Notes: generated by a model from the letters alone, not told the origin. Counted from the first letter of the stretch, positions 533-14,465 are shown. The stretch: 64,000 nucleotides of DNA from a virus (IMGVR_UViG_3300010163_000003:64001-128000), one strand, 5' to 3'. Made by a program: numbers and translations.

Positions 533-701
533 CAGTATTCATGTTGAAATAACTCCAGATATGATATATATTGCAACTGAAAACTCTAGTAGAGCGCGTT
601 ACAATTTTGGGAACATTGCCTTTAATGATATAGAAAATCGCAAGAGCAGAATTATTGAAGCGTTTAGTAATTATGTTAGAAACTACTACAGGGGTAATTA
701 A
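525..701 (+). CDS. Small hypothetical protein (58 aa), paralogue of 704..898
   Basis: SD AAAGGGAGG precedes ATG at 525. C-terminal FSNYV motif is shared with the next ORF. Confidence 0.65.
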   Translation: MDDSIHVEITPDMIYIATENSSRARYNFGNIAFNDIENRKSRIIEAFSNYVRNYYRGN

Positions 702-703
702 GC

Positions 704-898
704 ATGGATATAACTATTACAATGGATGTCTGTCTTTCGCAAAAATATGTTAATGATAAAAGTCACGAGGTAAGAATTAAAGAAAGAAATCATGATTGGG
801 GATTTTATCGTATTCCTAATGATGATCTTGATAACATAGTTAAAATCTTTTCCGATTATGTTTATACTCATCTTAATGGAGTCAAGAATAATGTGTGA
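704..898 (+). CDS. Small hypothetical protein (64 aa)
   Basis: Tight operon packing; C-terminal FSDYV motif. Confidence 0.65.
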   Translation: MDITITMDVCLSQKYVNDKSHEVRIKERNHDWGFYRIPNDDLDNIVKIFSDYVYTHLNGVKNNV

Positions 899-1457
899 AT
901 ATTATGATATCTGTAAAAATAATCATAGTTGTTATAGATGTTTTAATCATGAGTTATTAAATATTAAAGGTAAAAGACATATGACTCGTATCACAAACAT
1001 CACAGAACCTCATGATTATAAAACATCTATGCGAGATGATTCATGGAAAGATCTTGAGCAACAAGTAGCTGATAAACTTAACAATGTTCCCACCATACAA
1101 GATGCAAGAAGGAGTAGAGCATCAGGCTCTTTATGGTTTGAGAAAGGCGATGTTGTTGACGCTATTCTTCATCCTGAATGTAAAGAACGTACAGGCAAAG
1201 AGTTAAAAACTGGCGAGAAGACCATGACTATTAAAAAGGAATGGCTTGAAAAAGCATCTAAAGAATGCGAACAAGAAGGTACAACAATGTGTTTACCTTT
1301 CAGGTTTAAAGGAGACAAAAATATATATTGTATCTTCAATAATAATGATATTGCTACTCTTATTACAACTATGAAATCATATATGCTTGACAATGAAACA
1401 AAAGATACAGAAATTAAGCAACTAAAAAAATTACTGGAGAATTATAAACATGAGTAA
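858..1457 (+). CDS. PD-(D/E)XK nuclease, Hjc-like Holliday junction resolvase with N-terminal Cys cluster (true start probably ATG 891)
   Basis: Motifs LEQQVA...ASGS...KGDV...ECKE; N-terminal C-x4-C-x4-C-x2-C. Confidence 0.6.
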   Translation: MFILILMESRIMCEYYDICKNNHSCYRCFNHELLNIKGKRHMTRITNITEPHDYKTSMRDDSWKDLEQQVADKLNNVPTIQDARRSRASGSLWFEKGDVVDAILHPECKERTGKELKTGEKTMTIKKEWLEKASKECEQEGTTMCLPFRFKGDKNIYCIFNNNDIATLITTMKSYMLDNETKDTEIKQLKKLLENYKHE

Positions 1458-1485
1458 TAGCTTTCATGAATTTGGAGAATAACAA

Positions 1486-2703
1486 ATGGAATACGTTGCA
1501 TTGTATCAAAAATATAGACCTGATTCGTTTGATATGATATATGGTCAAGAGCCTATCGTTAATACTCTAACAAGTCAGATAGTAAATAATCGTATATTCC
1601 ATTCATATCTTTTTAGTGGTCCAAGAGGAACTGGCAAAACTACTGTAGCAAAATTATTTGCTAAAGCTATTAATTGCAGTGCTCCATTTAAAGCTAATCC
1701 TTGTGGTAAATGTTCTTCATGCATTAATACACAACAAGGAACGAATATAGACATAGTGGAAATAGATGCTGCATCAAACAATGGCGTAGATAACATTAGA
1801 GCAATCATTGAAGAATCTAGATATATGCCTCAGTTTGGTAAGTATAAAGTATATATCATAGACGAAGCTCATATGTTATCAGCTTCTGCTTATAATGCAT
1901 TGCTTAAAACTCTTGAAGAACCACCATCCAATGTTGTATTTATATTGGCAACTACAGAATGTCATAAGATTCCTGCTACAATATTTTCTCGTTGTCAGCA
2001 TTTTACCTTTAGGCTTATACCAGAATATGATATTGTAAATTGTCTAAAATTTATATGCATTAATGAAAGTGTACAATACGACATAAAAGCTTTGCAATAT
2101 ATTGCAAAGCTTGCTAATGGTGGTATGAGAAATGCAATTAGTATGCTTGATCAATGTATAGGTCTTAATCGAGATAGTGTTGACTTATGTATAGTAGAAC
2201 AGTTATTTGAAACAGTGGATTCTGATGTGATATCATCTATTATATCTTATATCAATAATAAAGATAGCGTCTCTATCTTTAAGATACTAGATAAGCAAAT
2301 GGAATTTGGCAAGGATCTTCTTTCATTATGTTCTAAACTGTATGATGCATATAAAGAACAACTTATGTTCAATCAAAACAATCCTCTTTTCCAACGCAAC
2401 ACTAAGATACTTGGAGAAATGGAAGAAAGAATGAAATGGAATAAGAGTCGTACTACTTTTGAAGTAGGTATATTAAAATTATGTGAACCAACTGCTAGTG
2501 ATAATTATGAATCATTGTCAGCAAAAATAAATGGAATTGAGAACACATTGAAAACTTTGATTAATAATATTGCTAGCGCAGGTACACCATTTAATGTGTC
2601 TAATAATCTTATTCCCAGAAATGAAACAAAAACTAAAATTGAAGAGTTTTGTCTCAAATATGGGATTAAGAAAACTAGAAACAAACACTTGATTATTTAC
2701 TAG
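1486..2703 (+). CDS. dnaX: DNA polymerase III gamma/tau clamp-loader subunit
   Basis: LYQKYRP, Walker A GPRGTGKT, Zn motif C..PCGKCSSC, EIDAASN, IIDEAHML, SRC motif. Confidence 0.95.
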   Translation: MEYVALYQKYRPDSFDMIYGQEPIVNTLTSQIVNNRIFHSYLFSGPRGTGKTTVAKLFAKAINCSAPFKANPCGKCSSCINTQQGTNIDIVEIDAASNNGVDNIRAIIEESRYMPQFGKYKVYIIDEAHMLSASAYNALLKTLEEPPSNVVFILATTECHKIPATIFSRCQHFTFRLIPEYDIVNCLKFICINESVQYDIKALQYIAKLANGGMRNAISMLDQCIGLNRDSVDLCIVEQLFETVDSDVISSIISYINNKDSVSIFKILDKQMEFGKDLLSLCSKLYDAYKEQLMFNQNNPLFQRNTKILGEMEERMKWNKSRTTFEVGILKLCEPTASDNYESLSAKINGIENTLKTLINNIASAGTPFNVSNNLIPRNETKTKIEEFCLKYGIKKTRNKHLIIY

Positions 2704-2711
2704 GAGGAACT

Positions 2712-3152
2712 ATGAAAGATGGTATAACATTATCTCCACGACATGGAGTCAATCCATCAATTACAAAATGCTTCTGGTGTGGAGAAGATATAGGCGTTAA
2801 ATTATTTGGTAAGATCGGGAAGAATGATGACGAAGCTCCACGTCATATCATCGTAAATTATGAGCCATGTAACAAATGCAAAGAAGCATTTAAGCAAGGA
2901 ATCTTAATGATTGGCGTGTCTGAGGACCAAGTCATTGATAACATGCCTCCAATCAGTGAGTCTTGCGGCGTTAAATTATATCCTACTGGAGCGCATGCTG
3001 TCGTTACAGAAGACTTTGCTAAGTTTATCTTTAAGGATATTCCAAAAGAAGAACTGGATACAATCCTTAAAGCAAGAAAGGTATTAATGCCTTCAGAACA
3101 TGTGATACAATTATTAAAAGCGTTAGAAGTTAATGAGGAGGAAAACAAATGA
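2712..3152 (+). CDS. Hypothetical zinc-finger protein
   Basis: CFWC...CNKC; SD AGGAGG. Confidence 0.7.
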   Translation: MKDGITLSPRHGVNPSITKCFWCGEDIGVKLFGKIGKNDDEAPRHIIVNYEPCNKCKEAFKQGILMIGVSEDQVIDNMPPISESCGVKLYPTGAHAVVTEDFAKFIFKDIPKEELDTILKARKVLMPSEHVIQLLKALEVNEEENK

Positions 3153-4264
3153 TAATCATTCCTGCAAGTTATGAAGTATACTCTAACCCCGATCCTCTCA
3201 AGAAAATTGAGAGGATCGCACGAATATGCTACAAATCAGAGGATAAGATTTGCGAAGGTTCTGACATTAAAATGATTAAGAACCTGGTAAAGCGTCAGCA
3301 TTATGCGATGCTTGAACATGCTTCTGTATGCGTTGAAGTTAATCCTGAACTGTATAACGATGTAATGAATTCATTGGATTACACGGAACATACTTTGTAT
3401 GATAGTACCTTCTTCTATAGCTTCAAGAAGACAAGGAAACCTTATCTGCTGTTTACTCATTTACATACTCAGAACGAAAACTTAAAAGATCATTACGTTA
3501 TCTCTGGGAATATACGCGCATGGCTTGAAGCATTTGAAATGATGGCAAAAGAGTTTGGAATACCAGAAGCGCTCTATAATGTTATAGTAGAAGCTACTGG
3601 TGGCGAAGATGGCCCTATTGCATTTTCTCGTCCACGCTATGAAGAGCTTGCTAATAGTAAAAATATATTTGCTGACTATAGCTCGAAGCATTCTAATGGT
3701 GGCTATCAGTATTGTGCGCTAATTGAAGATGTAACTAAACTAACGCCACAAGAACGCATAGTTCATGAAGATATGACAGTAATATTTACAGTTGACCGTG
3801 GCGTAGCTCATGAACTTGTGCGTATGCGCGATTGTTCTTTCGCTCAAGAATCTACTCGCTATTGCAATTATGCTAGCGATAAGTTTGGTTCAAACATTAC
3901 TTTTATTAAACCATTTGAGTTCGATAATAAATCACATGAGTATTGGATATGGAGTAATACTATGAAATCGATAGAATCATCATATCTTGCACTCATTGAT
4001 AACGGGATTAAACCACAAATGGCACGTTCTATCCTTCCTAACTCTGTAAAATCAACAATAGCCGTGACTACTAACTTGAGAGAATGGCGACACATATTTA
4101 ACTTACGCGCTTGTGACGCTACAGGGCCTGCTCATCCTCAAATGAAAGAAGTAATGATTCCTCTCTTTAAAGAGGTTAGAAGTACATATCTTTTTGCTTT
4201 TACTGGCTTAAAGTTACCTGGAGAAGAAAATGAAAGTGTTAAAAATAATATGGAAGATAATTAA
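3149..4264 (+). CDS. thyX: FAD-dependent thymidylate synthase, extended form
   Basis: ARICYKS, HYAMLEH, R(M)RDCSFAQESTRY, ARSILP, TNLREWRH, AHPQM. Confidence 0.9.
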   Translation: MIIIPASYEVYSNPDPLKKIERIARICYKSEDKICEGSDIKMIKNLVKRQHYAMLEHASVCVEVNPELYNDVMNSLDYTEHTLYDSTFFYSFKKTRKPYLLFTHLHTQNENLKDHYVISGNIRAWLEAFEMMAKEFGIPEALYNVIVEATGGEDGPIAFSRPRYEELANSKNIFADYSSKHSNGGYQYCALIEDVTKLTPQERIVHEDMTVIFTVDRGVAHELVRMRDCSFAQESTRYCNYASDKFGSNITFIKPFEFDNKSHEYWIWSNTMKSIESSYLALIDNGIKPQMARSILPNSVKSTIAVTTNLREWRHIFNLRACDATGPAHPQMKEVMIPLFKEVRSTYLFAFTGLKLPGEENESVKNNMEDN

Positions 4265-5711: not shown

Positions 5712-6706
5712 TCCTTAATATTTTTCATAGCTATTGCTTGTGCTTGTAACTTACGAACAGCTCTTTTCTTGTGTTCATTAATGGTAGACCTGTGACTACC
5801 ATACATCTTTCCTATTTCTATATCGGTCTTTTCTTCTATAAAGCTTAGTACTATTAATTCTCTTTCATAAGGAGTAAGGCATTCAAATAACTCACTACAT
5901 GTTACACCACTTGTCCAGTTAAAATTTAAGCAATTAACATCGTATGCGCTAAGATTTTCTGGTTCTTTCATTGTAAGTTTATCTGTACTCTTTATATCGT
6001 TACGTCTACTTTCTTCTGTAATTATCCTATCTATTTTCTTTGCAGTAGTATCGTCTTTAACAAAGATTTCATCTTGATGGTCTTCATCCATGTCATCAAA
6101 TTGATCTCTTAGGTTTAATACATTTAAATGAACAAGAGGGTCTTTAATTAGTTTAGATAAAAATCTATAAGCTTCCCAATGAAAGCATTTAGATACATAC
6201 ATATGAAACGTACCATTCTTTTTATGGTATATCTCACCTTCATGAGTTATTTTATATTTATTAGCCATGTTCAATAAAGCAAGGACTAATTCATTGTATA
6301 TGTCACTATAATCATATCTATCAAAAAGAGTTTTAATCTTAACACAAGTAAGAGAAAATACTTTCTTCTTCTCTTCCTTTGGTAGTTTTCTTACTGACTT
6401 ATCTATAAATAGAGAAACAAATGAAGATATTGTTGGGCTTACTCTTGTTATTACTTTCCCGCCTTTTGAAGTATATGTAGTGTAAGGTAGATTACCTAAT
6501 TTGATAAATTTCGCATACTTACTTATGAAAGGATGGAACACTTTGATTATATACTCTGTAGCTTCTCTGCTGCCGTCCTTGTACCGAACAAGATTCAACT
6601 GTAACTGTTGATAATCTTGTTCGGTAAAGTAGACATCTTCATTAGGGCCATGAATTGGCTCGTATTCTTTATCTATCTTATTAATAAAGTATTGTTCGCC
6701 AATCAT
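5708..6706 (-). CDS. Phage RNA polymerase sigma-70-family factor
   Basis: Region 2-like DIYNELVLALL...Y...TFHMY; region 4 HTH LTPYERELI...TDIEIGKMYG.HRSTI..HKKRAVRKL. Confidence 0.8.
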   Translation of the reverse strand: MIGEQYFINKIDKEYEPIHGPNEDVYFTEQDYQQLQLNLVRYKDGSREATEYIIKVFHPFISKYAKFIKLGNLPYTTYTSKGGKVITRVSPTISSFVSLFIDKSVRKLPKEEKKKVFSLTCVKIKTLFDRYDYSDIYNELVLALLNMANKYKITHEGEIYHKKNGTFHMYVSKCFHWEAYRFLSKLIKDPLVHLNVLNLRDQFDDMDEDHQDEIFVKDDTTAKKIDRIITEESRRNDIKSTDKLTMKEPENLSAYDVNCLNFNWTSGVTCSELFECLTPYERELIVLSFIEEKTDIEIGKMYGSHRSTINEHKKRAVRKLQAQAIAMKNIKE

Positions 6707-6720
6707 GGCAGCACCGTCCC

Positions 6721-7248
6721 TTAAGGCTGAAGAGAATGAATATAAGCAACACCAATAGATATTGCATCGTATATATCACTAGTCTTGTTTTTATTCTGCT
6801 TGTCACTATAAGGGCCGATTGCTTGTATAATTTGATTGTCTTCTCCAAATATGTTTATTACCTGTTTTGCTACTTCTTCTTTAGTGGCATTACCCTTTAA
6901 GCCAAACAGTAAACGTATTTGAGTAGGTAACATATGTATCACAGGCCATCCTGGTCTAAGGAATGTACCCATAATCGCTCCACGTAACGTTGCCAGTTGT
7001 AATCCTGTTTTAAGATTTCGACCAGAGAACCCATCTTCCAAAACAATAGTGTCTACATCATTCTCCACTGCGAAATAATATAGCTCATCTATTATCTGCT
7101 TGATACGTTCATCTGTAGTATTTTTAGAAGAAGTAGTAATTCTATTTACCTCTTCTAACTCACAACGATTCTTGTTTATAGCTCTTCTTATGATAACTGC
7201 ACCAGTTGAGGATAATGACGGATCAATAGCAAGTATCTTGTTGTTCAT
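6721..7248 (-). CDS. ruvC: RuvC-like Holliday junction resolvase
   Basis: ILAIDPSLSSTG, VLED, GNATKEEV, DIYDAISI. Confidence 0.85.
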   Translation of the reverse strand: MNNKILAIDPSLSSTGAVIIRRAINKNRCELEEVNRITTSSKNTTDERIKQIIDELYYFAVENDVDTIVLEDGFSGRNLKTGLQLATLRGAIMGTFLRPGWPVIHMLPTQIRLLFGLKGNATKEEVAKQVINIFGEDNQIIQAIGPYSDKQNKNKTSDIYDAISIGVAYIHSLQP

Positions 7249-9464: not shown

Positions 9465-9653
9465 TTAATCCTTGTCGGGTATCTTGATGTATAATCCGCA
9501 ATGACACATTCCTTCATTCATCTCTCGAAATTCTTTGCACATACATTTAGTATCTGGATTCTTTAAGAGAGAACATGGGCAGTATCCGTCATTTTCCTTA
9601 AGTTGTCGTTGTACTTCTTTAGCGTACTCTTTGTCTGGATTCATTGTAATCAT
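9465..9653 (-). CDS. Minimal ferredoxin:thioredoxin (disulfide) reductase catalytic subunit-like protein
   Basis: GYCPC...CMC...CHCGLY matches the FTR-c six-Cys pattern. Confidence 0.8.
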   Translation of the reverse strand: MITMNPDKEYAKEVQRQLKENDGYCPCSLLKNPDTKCMCKEFREMNEGMCHCGLYIKIPDKD

Positions 9654-9655
9654 TG

Positions 9656-10141
9656 TTATGAAATCCTTTCTGCGTACTGATTGTCAGATGCAAGAGTAAC
9701 TCCAAGTACGTCATCATACCTACTTGACCTATTGGGAATATAACGTCCGTACTTGATGATGATATTAGGGAGCCTCTTTAAAAACTCAACATCTTCCATA
9801 ATTTCCTCTGGGTTATAGCCAGTGTAAATAACAATGTCATCATTGCAGTGATAAATAAGACGTAATGACTTTATAACACTGAACATTTCATCTGTTTGTT
9901 CAAATGGCTCTAGCCCACCAAAAACAATGGCAGAAGTTATGTCATTATCGAGGTATCTCTTACATAACTTACTTGTTGGAATGTCGATGGAGGCGCATGA
10001 ACGCCATCCATCATTCTGACATACCGACATAGGAATTCCTGCTTCGATACAGCATTTACCGCCACAGGATATTGTACCTATAAACATTGAAGGCTTCTTG
10101 TAATTCACAAAGTCTTCGTCGATAATTTCTTTTACTCTCAT
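9656..10141 (-). CDS. nrdG: Anaerobic ribonucleotide reductase activase (radical SAM)
   Basis: C-x3-C...CQN, FGGLEPF, IYTGY, LASDNQ; adjacent to nrdD. Confidence 0.85.
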   Translation of the reverse strand: MRVKEIIDEDFVNYKKPSMFIGTISCGGKCCIEAGIPMSVCQNDGWRSCASIDIPTSKLCKRYLDNDITSAIVFGGLEPFEQTDEMFSVIKSLRLIYHCNDDIVIYTGYNPEEIMEDVEFLKRLPNIIIKYGRYIPNRSSRYDDVLGVTLASDNQYAERIS

Positions 10142-10265
10142 ATTGTTCCTCTATAGGGATAGTCCTATTAGTAGCAGTAATAGTTGTAGAAATGGTTTCT
10201 GTATTATCTTGTTTTATCCAGACACCATTCTTCTTAATCAAAAAAGATTTAGTACTGCATTTCAT
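10056..10265 (-). CDS. Small hypothetical ORF overlapping the nrdG start
   Basis: SD AAGAAGGA after the displaced nrdD stop. The 86-nt overlap with nrdG lowers confidence. Confidence 0.35.
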   Translation of the reverse strand: MKCSTKSFLIKKNGVWIKQDNTETISTTITATNRTIPIEEQYESKRNYRRRLCELQEAFNVYRYNILWR

Positions 10266-10279
10266 TTTATTTTCCTTCT

Positions 10280-10360
10280 TTAATCACGTTGCATTTCTGC
10301 ATACTCATACCACTGACGGGTAGTAAATTCTTTAAAACGATCCTTTGAATATGCTCTTGT
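10280..10360 (-). pseudogene. nrdD: Displaced duplicate of the nrdD 3' end (TRAYSKDRFKEFTTRQWYEYAEMQRD*)
   Basis: 81 nt encoding a near-identical copy of the final 26 aa of nrdD. It has no start codon. Confidence 0.92.
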
Positions 10361-11144
10361 AAGCCTTTTTATTGAATCGCTTTTTCCATAGTTGAAATTA
10401 TATCTTCTTCTTTGTTAATTTCAACTAGCCTAATATTGTGTTTTAAACAATATTCTTTTTTAGCTATGTCTCTATCCTTAGCTGCTTGAAATACACTGTC
10501 AGGAACTTTGAAAACATTGGAATAATGTTGTTCGCCTTGATATTCAATTAAACATTTCAAAGTACCATCTGCATTGAGTACCGCAAAATCAAATCTTAAT
10601 GGATACTTTTTGCCTCTTAAGTCAGAGAAAGTATATTGTTTCTTAAATAGAATGTTATGCTCTTTTAAAAAATTTTCTATCATAACTTCTCTATAAGATA
10701 TTACGCATCCACAAGATTTTGTTTCTCCAAATCTTAAATAAGAAGATATAACATTAATTTCTCCTCCACAATCACATTCGCAATGCCATAATGCTCTTCC
10801 GTTTTTAGATCCAACACGATGAGTTACAACAAGTTTTCCAAATCTCTGTCCAGTTAAATCAACAGAACGAGCTTTTGAAGTTGCCTCTTTATTTAAACAA
10901 CCACAAGATAATGTTACGCCATTTTTAAGATGAAGTCCTCTTATCTTTTTAATAGTTCCACAGTCACATTTGCATATCCAAACAGGGGTTCCTTTAACTG
11001 TTGTATCTCTTTCAAGAACAGTTAGCCTACCAAATCTTTTTCCAGTTAGATCAATAAGTTTACTCATTCTCTCATATCCTGAGCATATTCATACCATTGT
11101 CTTGAAGAGAATTCTTTAAAGCGATCTTTTGAGTAAGCTCGTGT
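10361..11144 (-). mobile_element. Free-standing homing endonuclease cassette (replacement nrdD 3' end plus endonuclease gene)
   Basis: Bounded by the two copies of the nrdD 3' end; the junction lies just after the glycyl-radical motif RIVGYLVP. Confidence 0.8.
10369..11067 (-). CDS. Putative homing endonuclease: two DLTG.RFG.L...W.C.CDCG...SCGC repeats plus Vsr/DUF559-like PD-(D/E)XK domain
   Basis: Repeated N-terminal Cys modules; LRFDF...LIEYQGEQHY...RDIAKKEYC. The ATG overlaps the nrdD TGA. Confidence 0.85.
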   Translation of the reverse strand: MSKLIDLTGKRFGRLTVLERDTTVKGTPVWICKCDCGTIKKIRGLHLKNGVTLSCGCLNKEATSKARSVDLTGQRFGKLVVTHRVGSKNGRALWHCECDCGGEINVISSYLRFGETKSCGCVISYREVMIENFLKEHNILFKKQYTFSDLRGKKYPLRFDFAVLNADGTLKCLIEYQGEQHYSNVFKVPDSVFQAAKDRDIAKKEYCLKHNIRLVEINKEEDIISTMEKAIQ

Positions 11145-12983
11145 AGGAACAAGATATCCAACTATTCGTGCATAAGTATCAAATACAGGATTACCGCATA
11201 CAGGACAAACATTAGTACCAACAAAACCATGATGATTCTCACACTCATTTATACGGGTATTGAATGCAAAATAAATAACTCCAGATTCAGCAATCTTATT
11301 GAGCATATCCCACGCTACATCTTCATTTGGGAAGTTAGATTCAAGATTTATATGTAGAATAGAACCGCCTGAACATTTAGCGTCAAGGATAGAAGCTACA
11401 CTAAGCTTTTCTTTGATGGTGGCTTTAGCCGATAATGGTATCCACTGATTGCTATAGATGAACGTATCCCCTTGCCTACCATAGATAAGAGAGTCTTTTT
11501 GACAAAGAATAATAGCAGCGCGTTCAGCAGGCACAGATTCAATGTTAAAGGAATATTCATCGGTAAAGTTATCTTTGATATCGTTAAGAACTTCAAAGAT
11601 TTTACTTGCAAATTCTATACCCTCTTTAGTATAGCTTACATAACCCAGTTCATCAACCTTAATATAACCAAAAGCTTTAATTGTTTCATACATACCAAGG
11701 ATGCCCATAGTACAATACTGTTTATCAAGCTCTACAGCACCATCTTGATAGTTAGGAAGAAGGCCCTTTTCAATATTGCGTTTAATGATATGACGTACAA
11801 CGTCAAGAGTTTTACAACACAATACAGCACGTTTACGAAGAAGAGCAAGGTATTTCTCTTCATCAAAATTAGTCTCTAAAGCAATACGCATCAGGTTAAT
11901 CGTATTAACCTTTACAGAACCAATAGAAAGAGCTGTACCACCAATGGAATTGATAAATGCATTTAGCTTTTTGGTATCAGAAAGTAAGCGGCAACAATTA
12001 CTAAGAGTCGTAACATCACCACTGACAAAGAAGTTGCTATCATTCCAGGTAACATTATGATTACTACACCAACGGGCAAACTCTTCATCAACAAACTTAC
12101 CGTTCTGGTACAGCAAACTGTATGAAAGGACCGGGAAAGTGAACATATTCTCGCTTCTTACTTGAGACACTACCTCCATAAACATCTTCTGATGCTCTAT
12201 AAGCCCCTCCACTTCATCAATGACATATGTACCATCTGGATACTGTATGCCGCCAAACAGAGACTCTATATAGTTTCTATCAAAAATAGAAACATTAACG
12301 AAAGCACTCTGATCGATACGCATGAAGGGTTGATTGAGACGATAGATAAGTTTCTGGAACGATTGTTTGATATAGTACTCAGGGTTCTTAAGAACGTAAC
12401 CGTCCTTACAATCCTTCTTCCAGAAATAATATGTCCAGATAAGAATGTTAGGAATACCTACAGCTCCAGAAGACCTATTACTCATGAAGCTAATGTACTC
12501 TATAACGTCATCCAAGAATGTTGTTAAATGTTTCGGTGGCTGATTATTGTAATTTTTGAGGAAGAACAAGCCCTCAGTAGCAAGACGAGTAAGGTCATAC
12601 GCATAGCAATACGGAATGTAAGAAGCAGTGTGAGCATCATGCAAATAAAAACCGCCGCTATATTCTGTCTCTAACCATTCTTTTGCGGTTGGAAGTCCAT
12701 ACTTTTTCGTAATCTCATAGAAGATTTTGCTGAATACGAAAATCTTATCATGAGGCTTGCTCTTCTCAGATAAGAGACTGCGGATATCTTTTGTAGAAGC
12801 ATTGGCATTAGCATCTATCGTAACATCAGCCACATTCTTATCTATAAAACCGTTAATGAAATCGGAAAAATTAAGCTGTGTCTCATGAAATCCGTTAAGA
12901 AGCTCGAAAGATTCACCGTACCTATCTCCTAAACGATGAAGCGCTCTTTCGAAATCCTTACATGTTTTTATTGGCATATTCAT
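11064..12983 (-). CDS. nrdD: Class III (anaerobic) ribonucleoside-triphosphate reductase, no ATP cone
   Basis: YLHD..., TFPV, SNCCRL, ESVPAE, Zn site CENH...CPVC, glycyl-radical RIVGY. Confidence 0.95.
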   Translation of the reverse strand: MNMPIKTCKDFERALHRLGDRYGESFELLNGFHETQLNFSDFINGFIDKNVADVTIDANANASTKDIRSLLSEKSKPHDKIFVFSKIFYEITKKYGLPTAKEWLETEYSGGFYLHDAHTASYIPYCYAYDLTRLATEGLFFLKNYNNQPPKHLTTFLDDVIEYISFMSNRSSGAVGIPNILIWTYYFWKKDCKDGYVLKNPEYYIKQSFQKLIYRLNQPFMRIDQSAFVNVSIFDRNYIESLFGGIQYPDGTYVIDEVEGLIEHQKMFMEVVSQVRSENMFTFPVLSYSLLYQNGKFVDEEFARWCSNHNVTWNDSNFFVSGDVTTLSNCCRLLSDTKKLNAFINSIGGTALSIGSVKVNTINLMRIALETNFDEEKYLALLRKRAVLCCKTLDVVRHIIKRNIEKGLLPNYQDGAVELDKQYCTMGILGMYETIKAFGYIKVDELGYVSYTKEGIEFASKIFEVLNDIKDNFTDEYSFNIESVPAERAAIILCQKDSLIYGRQGDTFIYSNQWIPLSAKATIKEKLSVASILDAKCSGGSILHINLESNFPNEDVAWDMLNKIAESGVIYFAFNTRINECENHHGFVGTNVCPVCGNPVFDTYARIVGYLVPTRAYSKDRFKEFSSRQWYEYAQDMRE

Positions 12984-13001
12984 TATTGCATCCTCGCCCT
13001 T

Positions 13002-13202
13002 CTAGGGAATTTGATTCACCCACCTTACGGCAGCATTAAAGTCAAGTAGCTTGCCATCAATAGAAAGCATTGGGACAGTGGTTATCCCCATATCAAGCAT
13101 ATCTTGCATAGAATTATTAACTGTATAGCAAATGTTTTTACCATCAAGTTTTTGCTTTAAGACGTTACACTTGGGGCAACCAGTTGAGTATAATATAGTC
13201 AT
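13002..13202 (-). CDS. nrdH: Glutaredoxin/NrdH-like redoxin
   Basis: LYSTGCPKC, TVPML. ATG at 13202 overlaps the upstream TGA. Confidence 0.8.
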   Translation of the reverse strand: MTILYSTGCPKCNVLKQKLDGKNICYTVNNSMQDMLDMGITTVPMLSIDGKLLDFNAAVRWVNQIP

Positions 13203-13351
13203 ATTAACCACCTTATAAAATCAATCAATAGATTTACTAAGCATATGTATCCTAATGAAAGTACATACATACTAACTATTACGATAACAATAGCTAATAG
13301 AATATGACGTTGCATCCAATCTTCTATCGCAAGATAGAATTTACGTATCAT
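13199..13351 (-). CDS. Small membrane protein (50 aa; not in ORF track)
   Basis: MIRKFYLAIEDWMQRHILLAIVIVIVSMYVLSLGYICLVNLLIDFIRWLI*; overlaps both neighbours. Confidence 0.6.
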   Translation of the reverse strand: MIRKFYLAIEDWMQRHILLAIVIVIVSMYVLSLGYICLVNLLIDFIRWLI

Positions 13352-13690: not shown

Positions 13691-14071
13691 TTAAGTATAA
13701 ATCCAGTTGGTTTCTCCATTATGCTTCAAATCGTTTTCTTCAAACTTTAAAAGCATAGCTTTTATTGTGTGTTGTAATTCCGCTTCGATAGTCTTTGACT
13801 GACATATCTTAAGGAACTCTACTACAGGCCATAACTTTCCTACGATAACCTTGTCTTCTTGGCTGTAAAGATATAGGTCATAAGACATTGAACTTAATGT
13901 AGTCTTTATATAATAATCAGATGGATAATCTGACATTGCTTCTATCATATCAGTAACCATCTTTTTAATCTGAGCATCAATCTTGGCCCATGACAAAAAG
14001 TATTTTGTGTATTTGGGATTAGATTTAGCCATGGATTCAAGTTCAGTCGTATTGAATGCATCCATTGTCAC
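13691..14071 (-). CDS. Hypothetical protein
   Basis: Operon packing. Confidence 0.6.
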   Translation of the reverse strand: MTMDAFNTTELESMAKSNPKYTKYFLSWAKIDAQIKKMVTDMIEAMSDYPSDYYIKTTLSSMSYDLYLYSQEDKVIVGKLWPVVEFLKICQSKTIEAELQHTIKAMLLKFEENDLKHNGETNWIYT

Positions 14072-14465
14072 AATCCCTCTTTCGTAATATTTCTTCTATG
14101 GGCATTTCTTTACCCAAACGATACATGATAGTTGTTCTTGGTATGCCAGTCTCTTTAGACCATTCAGAAATGTTCTGTGTCTTACCTTCATAAGTAAGAT
14201 ATACAGCGTTAGGAGTAGGATTTTCTTCTTTAATTTTGCACAAAGTTTCTGCGGCTTTTTTGGAACGATAATGACCACAGCTCTTAATAAGACCATGAAC
14301 TACACCATATAGAGGAAGCTCTACTGTGCTACCGCAACTGCAATCACATTTCGCCCATTTATTGGTGTTCCAAGATTTATATTTTTCAGTTGTGGGTTTG
14401 TTGATAAGCTCTCTAATGGTAAGTTCATTAAAGGTCTTATTAATGAGGCTCTCCATACATTTCAC
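14043..14465 (-). CDS. Homing-endonuclease-derived DNA-binding protein lacking the nuclease core
   Basis: N-terminal CDCSCG...KSCG module joined directly to C-terminal LTYEGKTQNISEWSKETGI...YRL HTH-like module. Confidence 0.65.
   Translation of the reverse strand: MKCMESLINKTFNELTIRELINKPTTEKYKSWNTNKWAKCDCSCGSTVELPLYGVVHGLIKSCGHYRSKKAAETLCKIKEENPTPNAVYLTYEGKTQNISEWSKETGIPRTTIMYRLGKEMPIEEILRKRDCDNGCIQYD

What the first reader, a model, noticed from the sequence alone, without database searches (positions are those of the whole stretch)
10280..11144. Homing endonuclease cassette that swapped in its own recoded nrdD C-terminus, leaving the old tail stranded
Seen: nrdD ends ...RIVGYLVP-TRAYSKDRFKEFSSRQWYEYAQDMRE* (last 81 nt, 11064-11144). 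Its TGA overlaps the ATG of a Vsr/DUF559-type endonuclease gene. Eight nt after that gene's stop is a second 81-nt, start-less copy: TRAYSKDRFKEFTTRQWYEYAEMQRD* (10280-10360). Many conserved residues use different synonymous codons (CGA/AGA, GCT/GCA, TAC/TAT, AAA/AAG, CGC/CGT, TTC/TTT, AGA/CGT, CAA/CAG, GAA/GAG). The junction is right after the glycyl-radical motif, the most conserved part of the gene. Known: 3'-end-replacement homing is described for fungal mitochondrial genes, and intronless homing near nrd genes in T4-like phages. Inference: this element inserts inside an essential gene without splicing, repairs it with a donated cleavage-resistant tail, and gains translational coupling to nrdD. 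I do not recall this being described for this nuclease family in phage class III RNR.
Basis: partly seen in the sequence, partly recalled or inferred. Interest (0 to 1): 0.85.

Follow-up and report, generated by a model that had tools for sequence, protein, structure and literature searches.

The report
Homing endonuclease replaced nrdD's tail
A selfish DNA-cutting-enzyme gene sits inside the end of a gut phage's anaerobic ribonucleotide reductase gene without breaking it, because it came with a foreign copy of the gene's last 26 codons and pushed the original end downstream as a dead fragment; this is well known in fungal mitochondria, but I found no published phage example.

Summary
On the minus strand, nrdD (11064-12983) ends in a 26-codon tail A. 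Its TGA overlaps the ATG of a 232-aa endonuclease gene (10369-11067). Eight nt after that gene's stop lies a start-less second tail, B (10280-10360). A and B are 77% identical in protein and 68% in DNA.

- **The nuclease.** Its C-terminal domain has the Vsr/I-Bth0305I fold (Z 9.8 and 9.6).
- **Which tail is native.** The two nearest endonuclease-free relatives end nrdD in a tail that is 80% and 77% identical to B but only 64% to A. The same stop and ribosome-binding site follow. So B is the native tail, and A arrived with the endonuclease gene.
- **Where relatives sit.** The closest homologues of the endonuclease lie exactly between nrdD and nrdG, with no duplication.
- **Likely origin.** I read this copy as a one-sided, illegitimate homing event from a diverged donor.
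- **Recurrence.** The same endonuclease family left the same kind of scar in an RNA ligase gene and a DNA ligase gene of other phages.

The design matches the fungal mitochondrial "mobile ORFs" that carry a foreign gene C-terminus. I found no phage paper describing it. This scan has noted similar cases on other DNA. Cleavage, tail resistance and present-day mobility are untested.

The parts
11064..12983 (-). nrdD, anaerobic (class III) ribonucleotide reductase large subunit, 639 aa, intact
   Evidence: ORF; PF13597 E 5e-87; 60-85% identical to hundreds of phage NrdD proteins
11145..11168 (-). codons for RIVGYLVP, the glycyl-radical motif; the duplicated segment begins at the next codon
   Evidence: translation; the motif is invariant or nearly so in all relatives
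11064..11144 (-). [quoted passage not shown]
   Evidence: 64% nt identity to the tails of the nearest relatives L169/L170 against 75-76% for the gene body; best match to any natural tail is 21 of 26 residues
10369..11067 (-). free-standing homing endonuclease gene, 232 aa. Two N-terminal CxC...CxC beta modules (about aa 1-122) and a C-terminal Vsr-like nuclease domain (aa 124-232). The ATG overlaps the nrdD TGA
   Evidence: PHROG 374, 559 and 9084 (HNH/homing endonuclease; E 7e-37 to 2e-24); AlphaFold model pLDDT 82.8; Z 9.8 to I-Bth0305I 3r3p_B and Z 9.6 to Vsr 1cw0_A; E127, D160, E175, H181 and D200 are invariant in 18 homologues
10397..10424 (-). promoter-like site TTGAAA-16-TATAAT (11 of 12) inside the 3' end of the endonuclease gene, pointing at tail B and nrdG
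   Evidence: a consensus match only, and the total number of sites in the region is not above that in shuffles
10361..10368 (-). 8-nt right junction (aaaggctt) between the endonuclease stop codon and tail B
   Evidence: sequence; no counterpart in donor-type loci, where the endonuclease stop overlaps the nrdG ATG
10280..10360 (-). tail B: the displaced native nrdD end, 26 codons plus TAA, with no start codon; a pseudogene fragment that has not visibly decayed
   Evidence: 80% and 77% nt identity to the L169/L170 tails; up to 24 of 26 residues identical to natural full-length tails; frame closed upstream with no start codon
10142..10279 (-). spacer. Its first 10 nt (agaaggaaaa) correspond to the ribosome-binding site that precedes nrdG in L169/L170. 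The remaining 127 or so nt are extra, of unknown origin, and open a 69-codon ORF (10056..10265) with no known relative
   Evidence: junction comparison; no family or homologue for the ORF
9656..10141 (-). nrdG, the activating radical-SAM enzyme, 161 aa, with its own ribosome-binding site
   Evidence: PF13353 E 6e-6; 45-79% identical to the nrdG that follows nrdD in all relatives

Best explanation
A free-standing homing endonuclease gene of the Vsr-like (EDxHD-type) fold entered this phage at the 3' end of nrdD together with a foreign copy of the last 26 codons of nrdD.

Shown: the working gene is a hybrid of a native body and a foreign tail A. The endonuclease gene follows tail A with an ATGA overlap. 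The native tail B lies 8 nt behind the endonuclease gene as a dead fragment, still followed by what was the nrdG ribosome-binding site.

Inferred mechanism:
1. In a mixed infection, the endonuclease from a donor phage cut the endonuclease-free nrdD of this phage's ancestor. In the donor, the endonuclease gene sat in its usual place between nrdD and nrdG.
2. The cut fell near the codons just after the glycyl-radical motif.
3. The left end of the break invaded the conserved donor nrdD and copied the donor tail and the endonuclease gene.
4. The right flank of this lineage differs from the donor's (a TAA, 11 nt and then nrdG, instead of overlapping genes). The right end was therefore joined without homology, almost unresected. 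This is a one-sided, illegitimate homing event.

That event duplicates exactly the stretch between the cut and the end of the gene. The product keeps nrdD whole without splicing. It could now move as a tail-plus-endonuclease unit into genomes with a B-type tail, but this is not shown.
For: - **Native against foreign tail.** Tail B is 80% and 77% identical to the L169/L170 tails. Tail A is 64% identical, and the gene body 75-76%. The TAA plus GAAGGAG that follows is shared.
- **Tail typicality.** B matches natural tails at up to 24 of 26 residues; A reaches at most 21 of 26.
- **Divergence under selection.** All 11 codon changes at the 20 conserved residues are synonymous. A and B therefore diverged as working genes in separate lineages, not after a duplication on the spot.
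- **Presence/absence polymorphism.** 74 of 79 IMG/VR relatives with the junction have nrdG directly after nrdD and no endonuclease gene.
- **Usual position of the endonuclease gene.** The closest homologues (53-65% identical) sit exactly between the nrdD stop and the nrdG ATG in L083-L089. More distant members do so in L098, L108 and L109, and one copy is decaying in L092.
- **Nuclease identity.** Vsr/I-Bth0305I fold at Z 9.8 and 9.6, with invariant E, D, E, H and D residues.
- **No intron.** No Rfam match at E up to 1.
- **Recurrence in an RNA ligase gene (L116).** The functional 55-codon tail has GC 0.32, like the endonuclease gene (0.33). The gene body has 0.46 and the stranded tail 0.48. 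Endonuclease-free relatives L174/L175 carry tails 87.5% identical to the stranded copy and 55% identical to the functional one.
- **Recurrence in a DNA ligase gene (L130).** The first 12 codons are duplicated upstream of the endonuclease gene.
- **Published mechanism.** One-sided homing with illegitimate repair at microhomologies is documented for T4 introns (review PMC2988022).
Against: - No donor is sampled. The nearest endonuclease homologue is only 65% identical. The tails next to those homologues are no closer to A (60-64%) than to B. The best nt matches of A are endonuclease-free loci (L045 at 80%).
- No relative closer than about 76% nt is available, so 'native' rests on 81 nt. By my own normal-approximation estimate, made in no tool call, A's lower identity is roughly 2.5 sd below the body level.
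- The left edge of the foreign tract cannot be placed.
- Among 87 loci of this endonuclease family, only the window has a nrdD tail duplication.
- The cleavage site, the activity of the enzyme and the resistance of tail A are all untested.
- The extra 127 nt before nrdG are unexplained.
Confidence: 0.78

Rival explanations
1. A standing, adapted cassette. Tail A plus the endonuclease gene is the regular mobile unit. It homes repeatedly into B-type nrdD alleles, using the nrdD body and tail B as its two homology arms. Tail A has been selected to resist cleavage and to carry the endonuclease's ribosome-binding site.
For: - The same design recurs in this endonuclease family in an RNA ligase gene and a DNA ligase gene.
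- In L184, a tail-A-type ligase end (93% identical) and its endonuclease gene (95% identical) occur together on a second contig.
- Tail A ends in AGGATATGAGAGAATG, which offers a Shine-Dalgarno-like run before the endonuclease ATG.
- Fungal mobile ORFs of this design are mobile (PMC3630166).
Against: - No second genome with this nrdD arrangement was found among 87 family loci, 80 nrdD loci and the top protein hits.
- All the closest homologues use the clean intergenic site.
- The A/B divergence is no greater than ordinary lineage divergence.
Confidence: 0.3
2. A duplication on the spot, then an insertion. The last 81 nt of nrdD were duplicated in tandem in this lineage, an endonuclease gene later landed between the copies, and the copies then drifted apart.
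For: The first 36 nt of A and B are more alike (83%) than an average pair of relatives' tails (68%).
Against: - All 11 changes at conserved residues are synonymous. That is not expected if one copy had been drifting as a dead fragment.
- B is much closer than A to the nearest relatives.
- The last 45 nt of A and B are only 56% identical, below the family average.
- In the sibling case L116, the base composition shows the functional tail is foreign.
Confidence: 0.05
3. An intron or an artefact. Either 10361-11144 is a self-splicing intron whose removal joins the nrdD body to tail B, or the arrangement is a chimeric metagenome assembly of an endonuclease-bearing strain and an endonuclease-free strain.
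For: nrdD of related phages does carry other insertions, including genes split by HTH ORFs in L085, L087 and L088 and an intein-length insert in phage c-st. The genome has introns elsewhere according to unchecked notes from this scan.
Against: - No Rfam family matches 9500-13100 at E up to 1.
- Tail A is in frame and complete with its own stop, so no splicing is needed.
- A and B share no exact run long enough to mislead a k-mer assembler.
- The contig is a complete genome with terminal repeats.
Confidence: 0.03

Closest known systems
Mobile endonuclease ORFs (mORFs) of fungal mitochondria that carry a foreign gene C-terminus: Allomyces macrogynus atp6; Glomus sp. atp6, atp9, cox2 and nad3 (PMC3630166); C-terminal duplications of atp6 and cob flanked by endonuclease ORFs in Endoconidiophora (PMC6279837)
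   Same: The order is the same: gene body, inserted in-phase C-terminus, endonuclease ORF, displaced native C-terminus. The native copy is closer to the near relative than the inserted copy is (91-98% against 64-81% there; 77-80% against 64% here). Many of the differences are synonymous. No splicing is needed.
   Different: The genome here is a tailed phage, not a mitochondrion. The nuclease is Vsr-like rather than LAGLIDADG or GIY-YIG. The host gene is nrdD. The endonuclease ORF is a separate cistron coupled by an ATGA overlap, not fused in phase. Mobility is not shown here.
Free-standing homing endonucleases of T4-like phages at the nrd genes: mobC between nrdG and nrdD, mobE and hef at nrdA/nrdB, SegH (review PMC2988022)
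   Same: An intron-less endonuclease gene lies between the two class III reductase genes. It is present or absent among relatives and has no promoter of its own upstream, riding on the host operon. Hef belongs to the same Vsr-like family according to PMC3239194.
   Different: Those genes sit between intact genes, and the review does not report a duplicated gene end. Their families are HNH or GIY-YIG, apart from Hef.
I-Bth0305I and the Vsr-like (EDxHD) homing endonucleases of phage fractured genes and introns (PMC2677866; PMC3239194)
   Same: The C-terminal nuclease domain has the same fold (Z 9.8, rmsd 2.8 over 88 of 98 residues). The architecture is two-part, with DNA-binding repeats in front of the nuclease. 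The hosts are phage DNA-metabolism genes, including ribonucleotide reductases.
   Different: No similarity is detectable at sequence level. The N-terminal modules here are two cysteine-rich beta units, not NUMOD/helix-turn-helix motifs. The gene lies neither in an intron nor between split-intein halves.
[quoted passage not shown]
   Same: Homology is available on one side of the break only, and the other junction forms without homology. This is the route I propose for the right junction at 10361-10368.
   Different: That was an experimental system using the td intron. I could not read the original paper, so I cannot say whether its products included flank duplications.

Membership tests
Vsr-like / EDxHD homing endonucleases (prototype I-Bth0305I) | C-terminal catalytic domain with the Vsr endonuclease fold | tested here: met
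   AlphaFold model from 18 homologues, pLDDT 82.8. Residues 124-232 align to 3r3p_B at Z 9.8 (rmsd 2.8, 88 aligned) and to 1cw0_A at Z 9.6 (rmsd 2.5, 99 aligned); these are the top two of 48,161 chains.
Vsr-like / EDxHD homing endonucleases (prototype I-Bth0305I) | Composite catalytic motif E...D...H...D, plus an extra conserved acidic residue (PMC3239194) | tested here: inconclusive
   E127, D160, E175, H181 and D200 are invariant in 18 homologues and occur in the right order. I could not make a residue-by-residue superposition on E170, H213 and D222 of I-Bth0305I.
Vsr-like / EDxHD homing endonucleases (prototype I-Bth0305I) | N-terminal NUMOD / helix-turn-helix DNA-binding repeats | tested here: not met
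   The N-terminal 122 residues form two repeats of a beta-rich unit with W-x-C-x-C...C-G-C cysteines. They match PHROG 374 and 559, not a NUMOD family.
Vsr-like / EDxHD homing endonucleases (prototype I-Bth0305I) | Sequence-level homology to family members | tested here: inconclusive
   The profile of 18 homologues against all PDB sequences returned only chance kinase hits at E about 0.03. Pfam gives DUF2726 at 21.8 bits, under the 24.7 cut-off, and no DUF559 or Vsr hit at E up to 0.01.
Free-standing (intron-less) homing endonuclease genes of phages | Own ORF outside any intron or intein | tested here: met
   No Rfam match at E up to 1 in 9500-13100. nrdD is complete and in frame up to its own stop.
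Free-standing (intron-less) homing endonuclease genes of phages | Present or absent at the same locus among related genomes | tested here: met
   Absent in 74 of 79 IMG/VR relatives and in L169/L170. Present at the nrdD-nrdG junction in L068, L083-L089, L092, L098, L108 and L109.
Free-standing (intron-less) homing endonuclease genes of phages | Cuts the endonuclease-free allele and is copied into it | not testable with these tools
   Needs enzyme assays or crosses.
mORF-type gene-end replacement elements (fungal mitochondria) | An inserted C-terminus in phase with the host gene, then the endonuclease ORF, then the displaced native C-terminus | tested here: met
mORF-type gene-end replacement elements (fungal mitochondria) | The displaced copy is closer to near relatives than the inserted copy is | tested here: met
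   80% and 77% against 64% nt to L169/L170. In the sibling case L116, 87.5% against 55% aa.
mORF-type gene-end replacement elements (fungal mitochondria) | LAGLIDADG or GIY-YIG nuclease in a mitochondrial genome | tested here: not met
   Vsr-like fold in a 218-kb phage genome with terminal repeats.

The most novel reading that the evidence does not exclude
Vsr-like homing endonucleases of gut phages routinely travel as 'cut and rescue' units. The enzyme cuts an essential gene at its most conserved codons (here the glycyl-radical motif). The element carries a diverged, uncuttable copy of the gene end (a tail or a head) that restores the gene. The left edge of the stranded copy marks the cut site. 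This would be a natural phage counterpart of both the fungal mORFs and the engineered home-and-rescue gene drives, and a regular source of mosaic gene ends in phage replication genes.
Probability: 0.3. Interest if true: 0.75.

Novelty: new variant of a known kind. Interest (0 to 1): 0.6.

Why it matters
It shows that an intron-less homing endonuclease can occupy the inside of an essential phage gene without a ribozyme or an intein, simply by bringing a replacement gene end. This solution has so far been documented in fungal mitochondria.

The stranded tail acts as a dated footprint. It identifies the native allele, gives a candidate cut site next to the glycyl-radical codons, and yields a directly testable pair of substrates (body+B against body+A).

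The same endonuclease family left the same scar in an RNA ligase gene and a DNA ligase gene of other phages. Gene-end replacement may therefore be a general, overlooked route of mosaicism in phage replication genes. It would also produce short orphan ORF fragments that annotation pipelines miscall.

The logic (cut an essential gene, supply a diverged rescue copy) is that of engineered home-and-rescue gene drives (title and abstract of PMC7968924, listed).

Tried and rejected
- **Near-identical relatives.** Megablast of the locus against 50,697 phage records found no match. No relative above about 85% aa for NrdD or 79% for NrdG exists in the 5.8-billion-protein collection. A near-identical endonuclease-free allele could therefore not be examined.
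- **Cultured phages.** tblastn of the 45-residue nrdD end against cultured phages found only the Clostridium c-st group, once per record.
- **Weaker structure and family searches.** Foldseek against the PDB with the whole three-domain model gave only weak rows (best E 4.5e-3; Vsr at prob 1.00, TM 0.51). The sequence profile against the PDB gave chance kinase hits. NCBIfam gave nothing meaningful.
- **Left crossover.** I tried to place it inside the tail by comparing the first 36 nt with the last 45 nt. The result is suggestive (A and B are 83% and 56% identical in the two halves), but the synonymous-only pattern argues that the whole of A is foreign. I left this open. The sliding comparison of the gene body showed no switch of nearest relative, but only L169 aligned without gaps.
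- **The 8-nt junction.** Reading it as a remnant of donor nrdG or of the native GGCTAC codons fits 6-7 nt. That is too short to count.
- **The 69-codon ORF (10056..10265).** No Pfam, PHROG or phage match. RNA folding of 10130-10400 gave z -2.9 and no recognisable element.
- **Literature.** Parker et al. 1999 (PMC1460845) is not held in the library.

Full report
**What is there**

The window is bases 64001-128000 of a complete 218,431-bp IMG/VR phage genome with direct terminal repeats. On the minus strand the order is as follows:
- a glutaredoxin-like gene;
- nrdD (11064..12983, 639 aa; PF13597, E 5e-87);
- a 232-aa ORF (10369..11067), whose ATG overlaps the nrdD TGA;
- 8 nt;
- an 81-nt start-less copy of the nrdD end (10280..10360);
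- a 138-nt spacer;
- nrdG (9656..10141).

The working tail A and the orphan tail B each begin at the codon after the glycyl-radical motif RIVGYLVP. They share 20 of 26 residues: 9 codons are identical and 11 are synonymous variants. Six residues differ. DNA identity is 55 of 81. The similarity is far beyond chance (E 2e-10 and 9e-14). The frame of B is closed 19 codons upstream and has no start codon.

**The inserted gene**

- Pfam gives only a sub-threshold DUF2726 hit.
- PHROGs places the protein in families annotated as HNH or homing endonucleases (E 7e-37 to 2e-24).
- I built a structure model from 18 homologues (pLDDT 82.8). It shows two beta-rich, cysteine-bearing repeats (about residues 1-122) and a C-terminal domain (124-232).
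- The best matches of the C-terminal domain among 48,161 solved chains are the catalytic domain of the homing endonuclease I-Bth0305I (Z 9.8) and E. coli Vsr (Z 9.6).
- E127, D160, E175, H181 and D200 are invariant in the 18 homologues. That order is the one expected for the composite EDxHD motif described for that family (PMC3239194).
- No sequence-level link to solved structures was found, and the N-terminal modules are not the NUMOD motifs of I-Bth0305I.

My reading is that this protein works like a Vsr-type homing endonuclease and shares that fold. Membership of the EDxHD family in the strict sense is not established.

**Relatives without and with the endonuclease gene**

Of the 80 IMG/VR loci whose NrdD is 60-83% identical, almost all have nrdG starting at or within a few tens of nt of the nrdD stop. 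None has a second tail. The exceptions are L068 (a homologue of this endonuclease), L006/L073/L077 (an unrelated insert of about 970 nt), L075 (an extra 149-aa ORF) and the truncated L080.

The closest homologues of the endonuclease in the 5.8-billion-protein collection are only 53-65% identical. I fetched the contigs of three of them (P0004, P0005, P0009) and the IMG/VR locus L089. On each, the gene lies exactly between nrdD and nrdG. Its start overlaps the nrdD stop and its stop overlaps the nrdG ATG, which leaves no room for a spare tail.

More distant members occupy the same junction next to NrdD proteins that are only 45-52% identical (L098, L108, L109). One copy is decaying (L092). The family is thus an old tenant of the nrdD-nrdG junction. 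T4 is known to keep an unrelated HNH gene, mobC, at the same place (PMC2988022).

**Which tail is native**

The two nearest relatives by NrdD, NrdG and gene order are L169 and L170. Both lack the endonuclease gene.
- Their nrdD body is 75-76% identical in DNA to the window.
- Their tail is 80% and 77% identical to B, but only 64% identical to A.
- After their TAA comes GAAGGAGAACC and then the nrdG ATG. After the TAA of B comes AGAAGGAAAA.
- At protein level, B matches natural full-length tails at up to 24 of 26 positions. A reaches at most 21 of 26.
- All differences at conserved residues are synonymous. The two copies therefore diverged while both were working genes, that is, in different lineages.

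B is therefore the native end, and A came in with the endonuclease gene.

'Recoding' needs no special explanation. The A/B divergence is the ordinary divergence between lineages of this gene family.

**How it probably arose**

In donors the endonuclease gene is wedged between overlapping genes. The window's lineage instead has a TAA, an 11-nt spacer and then nrdG. A break made in nrdD could be repaired from such a donor using homology on the nrdD side only. The other end would then be joined without homology.

If the right end was barely resected, the product is exactly what is seen: donor tail, endonuclease gene, a few junction bases, and then the recipient's DNA from the break onward. One-sided homing with illegitimate junctions is documented for T4 (PMC2988022).

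On this reading, the left edge of B approximates the cut site, next to the glycyl-radical codons. This step is inference. I could not place the left edge of the foreign tract, and no donor is sampled.

**Is it a one-off?**

I compared the two flanks of 87 loci of this endonuclease family. Two further cases turned up.

*L115/L116.* These are contigs of a phage that reads TAG as glutamine, shown by in-frame TAGs at conserved Q positions of the endonuclease.
- An RNA ligase gene (PF09414) ends in a 55-codon tail and is followed by the endonuclease gene.
- Sixteen nt after the endonuclease stop lies a 48-codon orphan tail that is 55% identical to the functional one.
- The functional tail has the base composition of the endonuclease gene (GC 0.32 and 0.33). 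The orphan tail has that of the gene body (0.48 and 0.46).
- Endonuclease-free relatives L174/L175 carry tails 87.5% identical to the orphan and 55% identical to the functional tail.
- A second contig (L184) carries the same tail-plus-endonuclease pair at 93% and 95% identity, with the orphan tail truncated.

*L129/L130.* The first 12 codons of an ATP-dependent DNA ligase gene are duplicated upstream of the endonuclease gene (29 of 36 nt identical, counted by eye from the two sequences printed). This is the mirror-image, 5'-end version.

Gene-end replacement is therefore recurrent in this family, even though most copies sit in clean intergenic sites.

**Alternatives**

- *Intron.* No Rfam match, and tail A is complete with its own stop.
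- *Assembly chimera.* A and B share no long exact run, and the genome is closed by terminal repeats.
- *Tandem duplication followed by drift.* The synonymous-only pattern and the asymmetry towards L169/L170 argue against it.
- *Standing cassette or accident.* Whether the tail-plus-endonuclease unit is a standing, adapted cassette or the scar of one accident remains open. I put the accident-origin reading ahead for this locus, because all close homologues use the clean site.

**Comparison with what is known**

The architecture and the identity pattern match the mobile endonuclease ORFs of fungal mitochondria that bring a foreign C-terminus. Examples are Allomyces atp6 and Glomus atp6, atp9, cox2 and nad3. 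There the native copy is 91-98% identical to the sister species and the inserted copy 64-81% (PMC3630166; see also PMC6279837).

Six full-text searches found no description of this arrangement in a phage. That is a limited search, not proof of absence.

Unchecked notes from this scan report the same kind of thing on other DNA: an Enterococcus phage nrdD with 27 duplicated codons, T4-like phages with a duplicated nrdG start, and a stack of nrdD tails in an archaeon. I did not test those notes.

**Verdict**

I class it as a new variant of a known kind: a mORF-like gene-end replacement carried out by a Vsr-fold homing endonuclease in a phage class III ribonucleotide reductase gene. Enzyme activity, the cut site, resistance of the donated tail and present-day mobility remain to be shown.

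Noticed in passing
window 10142-10279 (ORF 10056..10265, minus strand): Between the old ribosome-binding site after tail B and nrdG lie about 127 nt that L169/L170 lack. An ATG sits where the nrdG ATG lies in those relatives and opens a 69-codon ORF that runs 86 nt into nrdG in another frame. It has no homologue. It may be the scar of an earlier, deleted element at the canonical junction.
   Followed up: partly
window 10397-10424, minus strand: A near-consensus promoter-like site (TTGAAA-16-TATAAT, 11 of 12) lies inside the last 60 nt of the endonuclease gene and points at tail B and nrdG. It may restore nrdG transcription after the insertion. It is not conserved in the homologue L084.
   Followed up: no
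window 14043-14465, minus strand: A 140-aa ORF carries one copy of the same cysteine-rich DNA-binding module as the endonuclease N-terminus (PHROG 374, E 2e-9), plus a PHROG 3377 'HNH endonuclease' C-terminal match. It has no Vsr-like domain. It could be a second, different or truncated homing-endonuclease-like gene.
   Followed up: no
L116 2044-4090 (also L115, L171, L172, L184): In a phage that reads TAG as Gln, an RNA ligase gene had its last 55 codons replaced by an AT-rich foreign copy. A 307-aa endonuclease of the same family follows, and the native 48-codon tail is stranded 16 nt behind it. Endonuclease-free relatives L174/L175 match the stranded tail (87.5% aa).
   Followed up: yes
L130 2880-3820 (also L129): This is the mirror-image case. 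The first 12 codons of an ATP-dependent DNA ligase gene are duplicated (29 of 36 nt) upstream of an endonuclease gene of the same family. The genome also uses TAG as a sense codon.
   Followed up: partly
L068 5934-7280: A three-repeat homologue of the endonuclease lies between nrdD and nrdG. It has lost its stop and reads in frame into nrdG, giving a 448-aa fusion ORF.
   Followed up: no
L092 3040-3590: An endonuclease gene at the canonical nrdD-nrdG site shows internal stops and has lost one DNA-binding repeat. This is the decay stage of the homing cycle.
   Followed up: no
L085, L087, L088 (nrdD 640-3530); L081 (phage c-st nrdD): nrdD of related phages is interrupted by other elements as well. 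HTH-bearing ORFs split the gene into two pieces at two different positions. The c-st gene carries an in-frame insert of about 1 kb. nrdD is a hot spot for several kinds of mobile element.
   Followed up: no
L006, L073, L077 at 5914-6880: A different insert of about 970 nt, with two ORFs (99 and 208 aa, families not checked), lies between nrdD and nrdG in three contigs.
   Followed up: no
window 13002-13211 and 9465-9653, minus strand: nrdD and nrdG are flanked by a glutaredoxin/thioredoxin-like gene (E 1e-5) and a small protein with a near-threshold match to the ferredoxin-thioredoxin reductase catalytic chain (21.6 bits, cut-off 22). The same neighbours occur in relatives (L083-L086).
   Followed up: no
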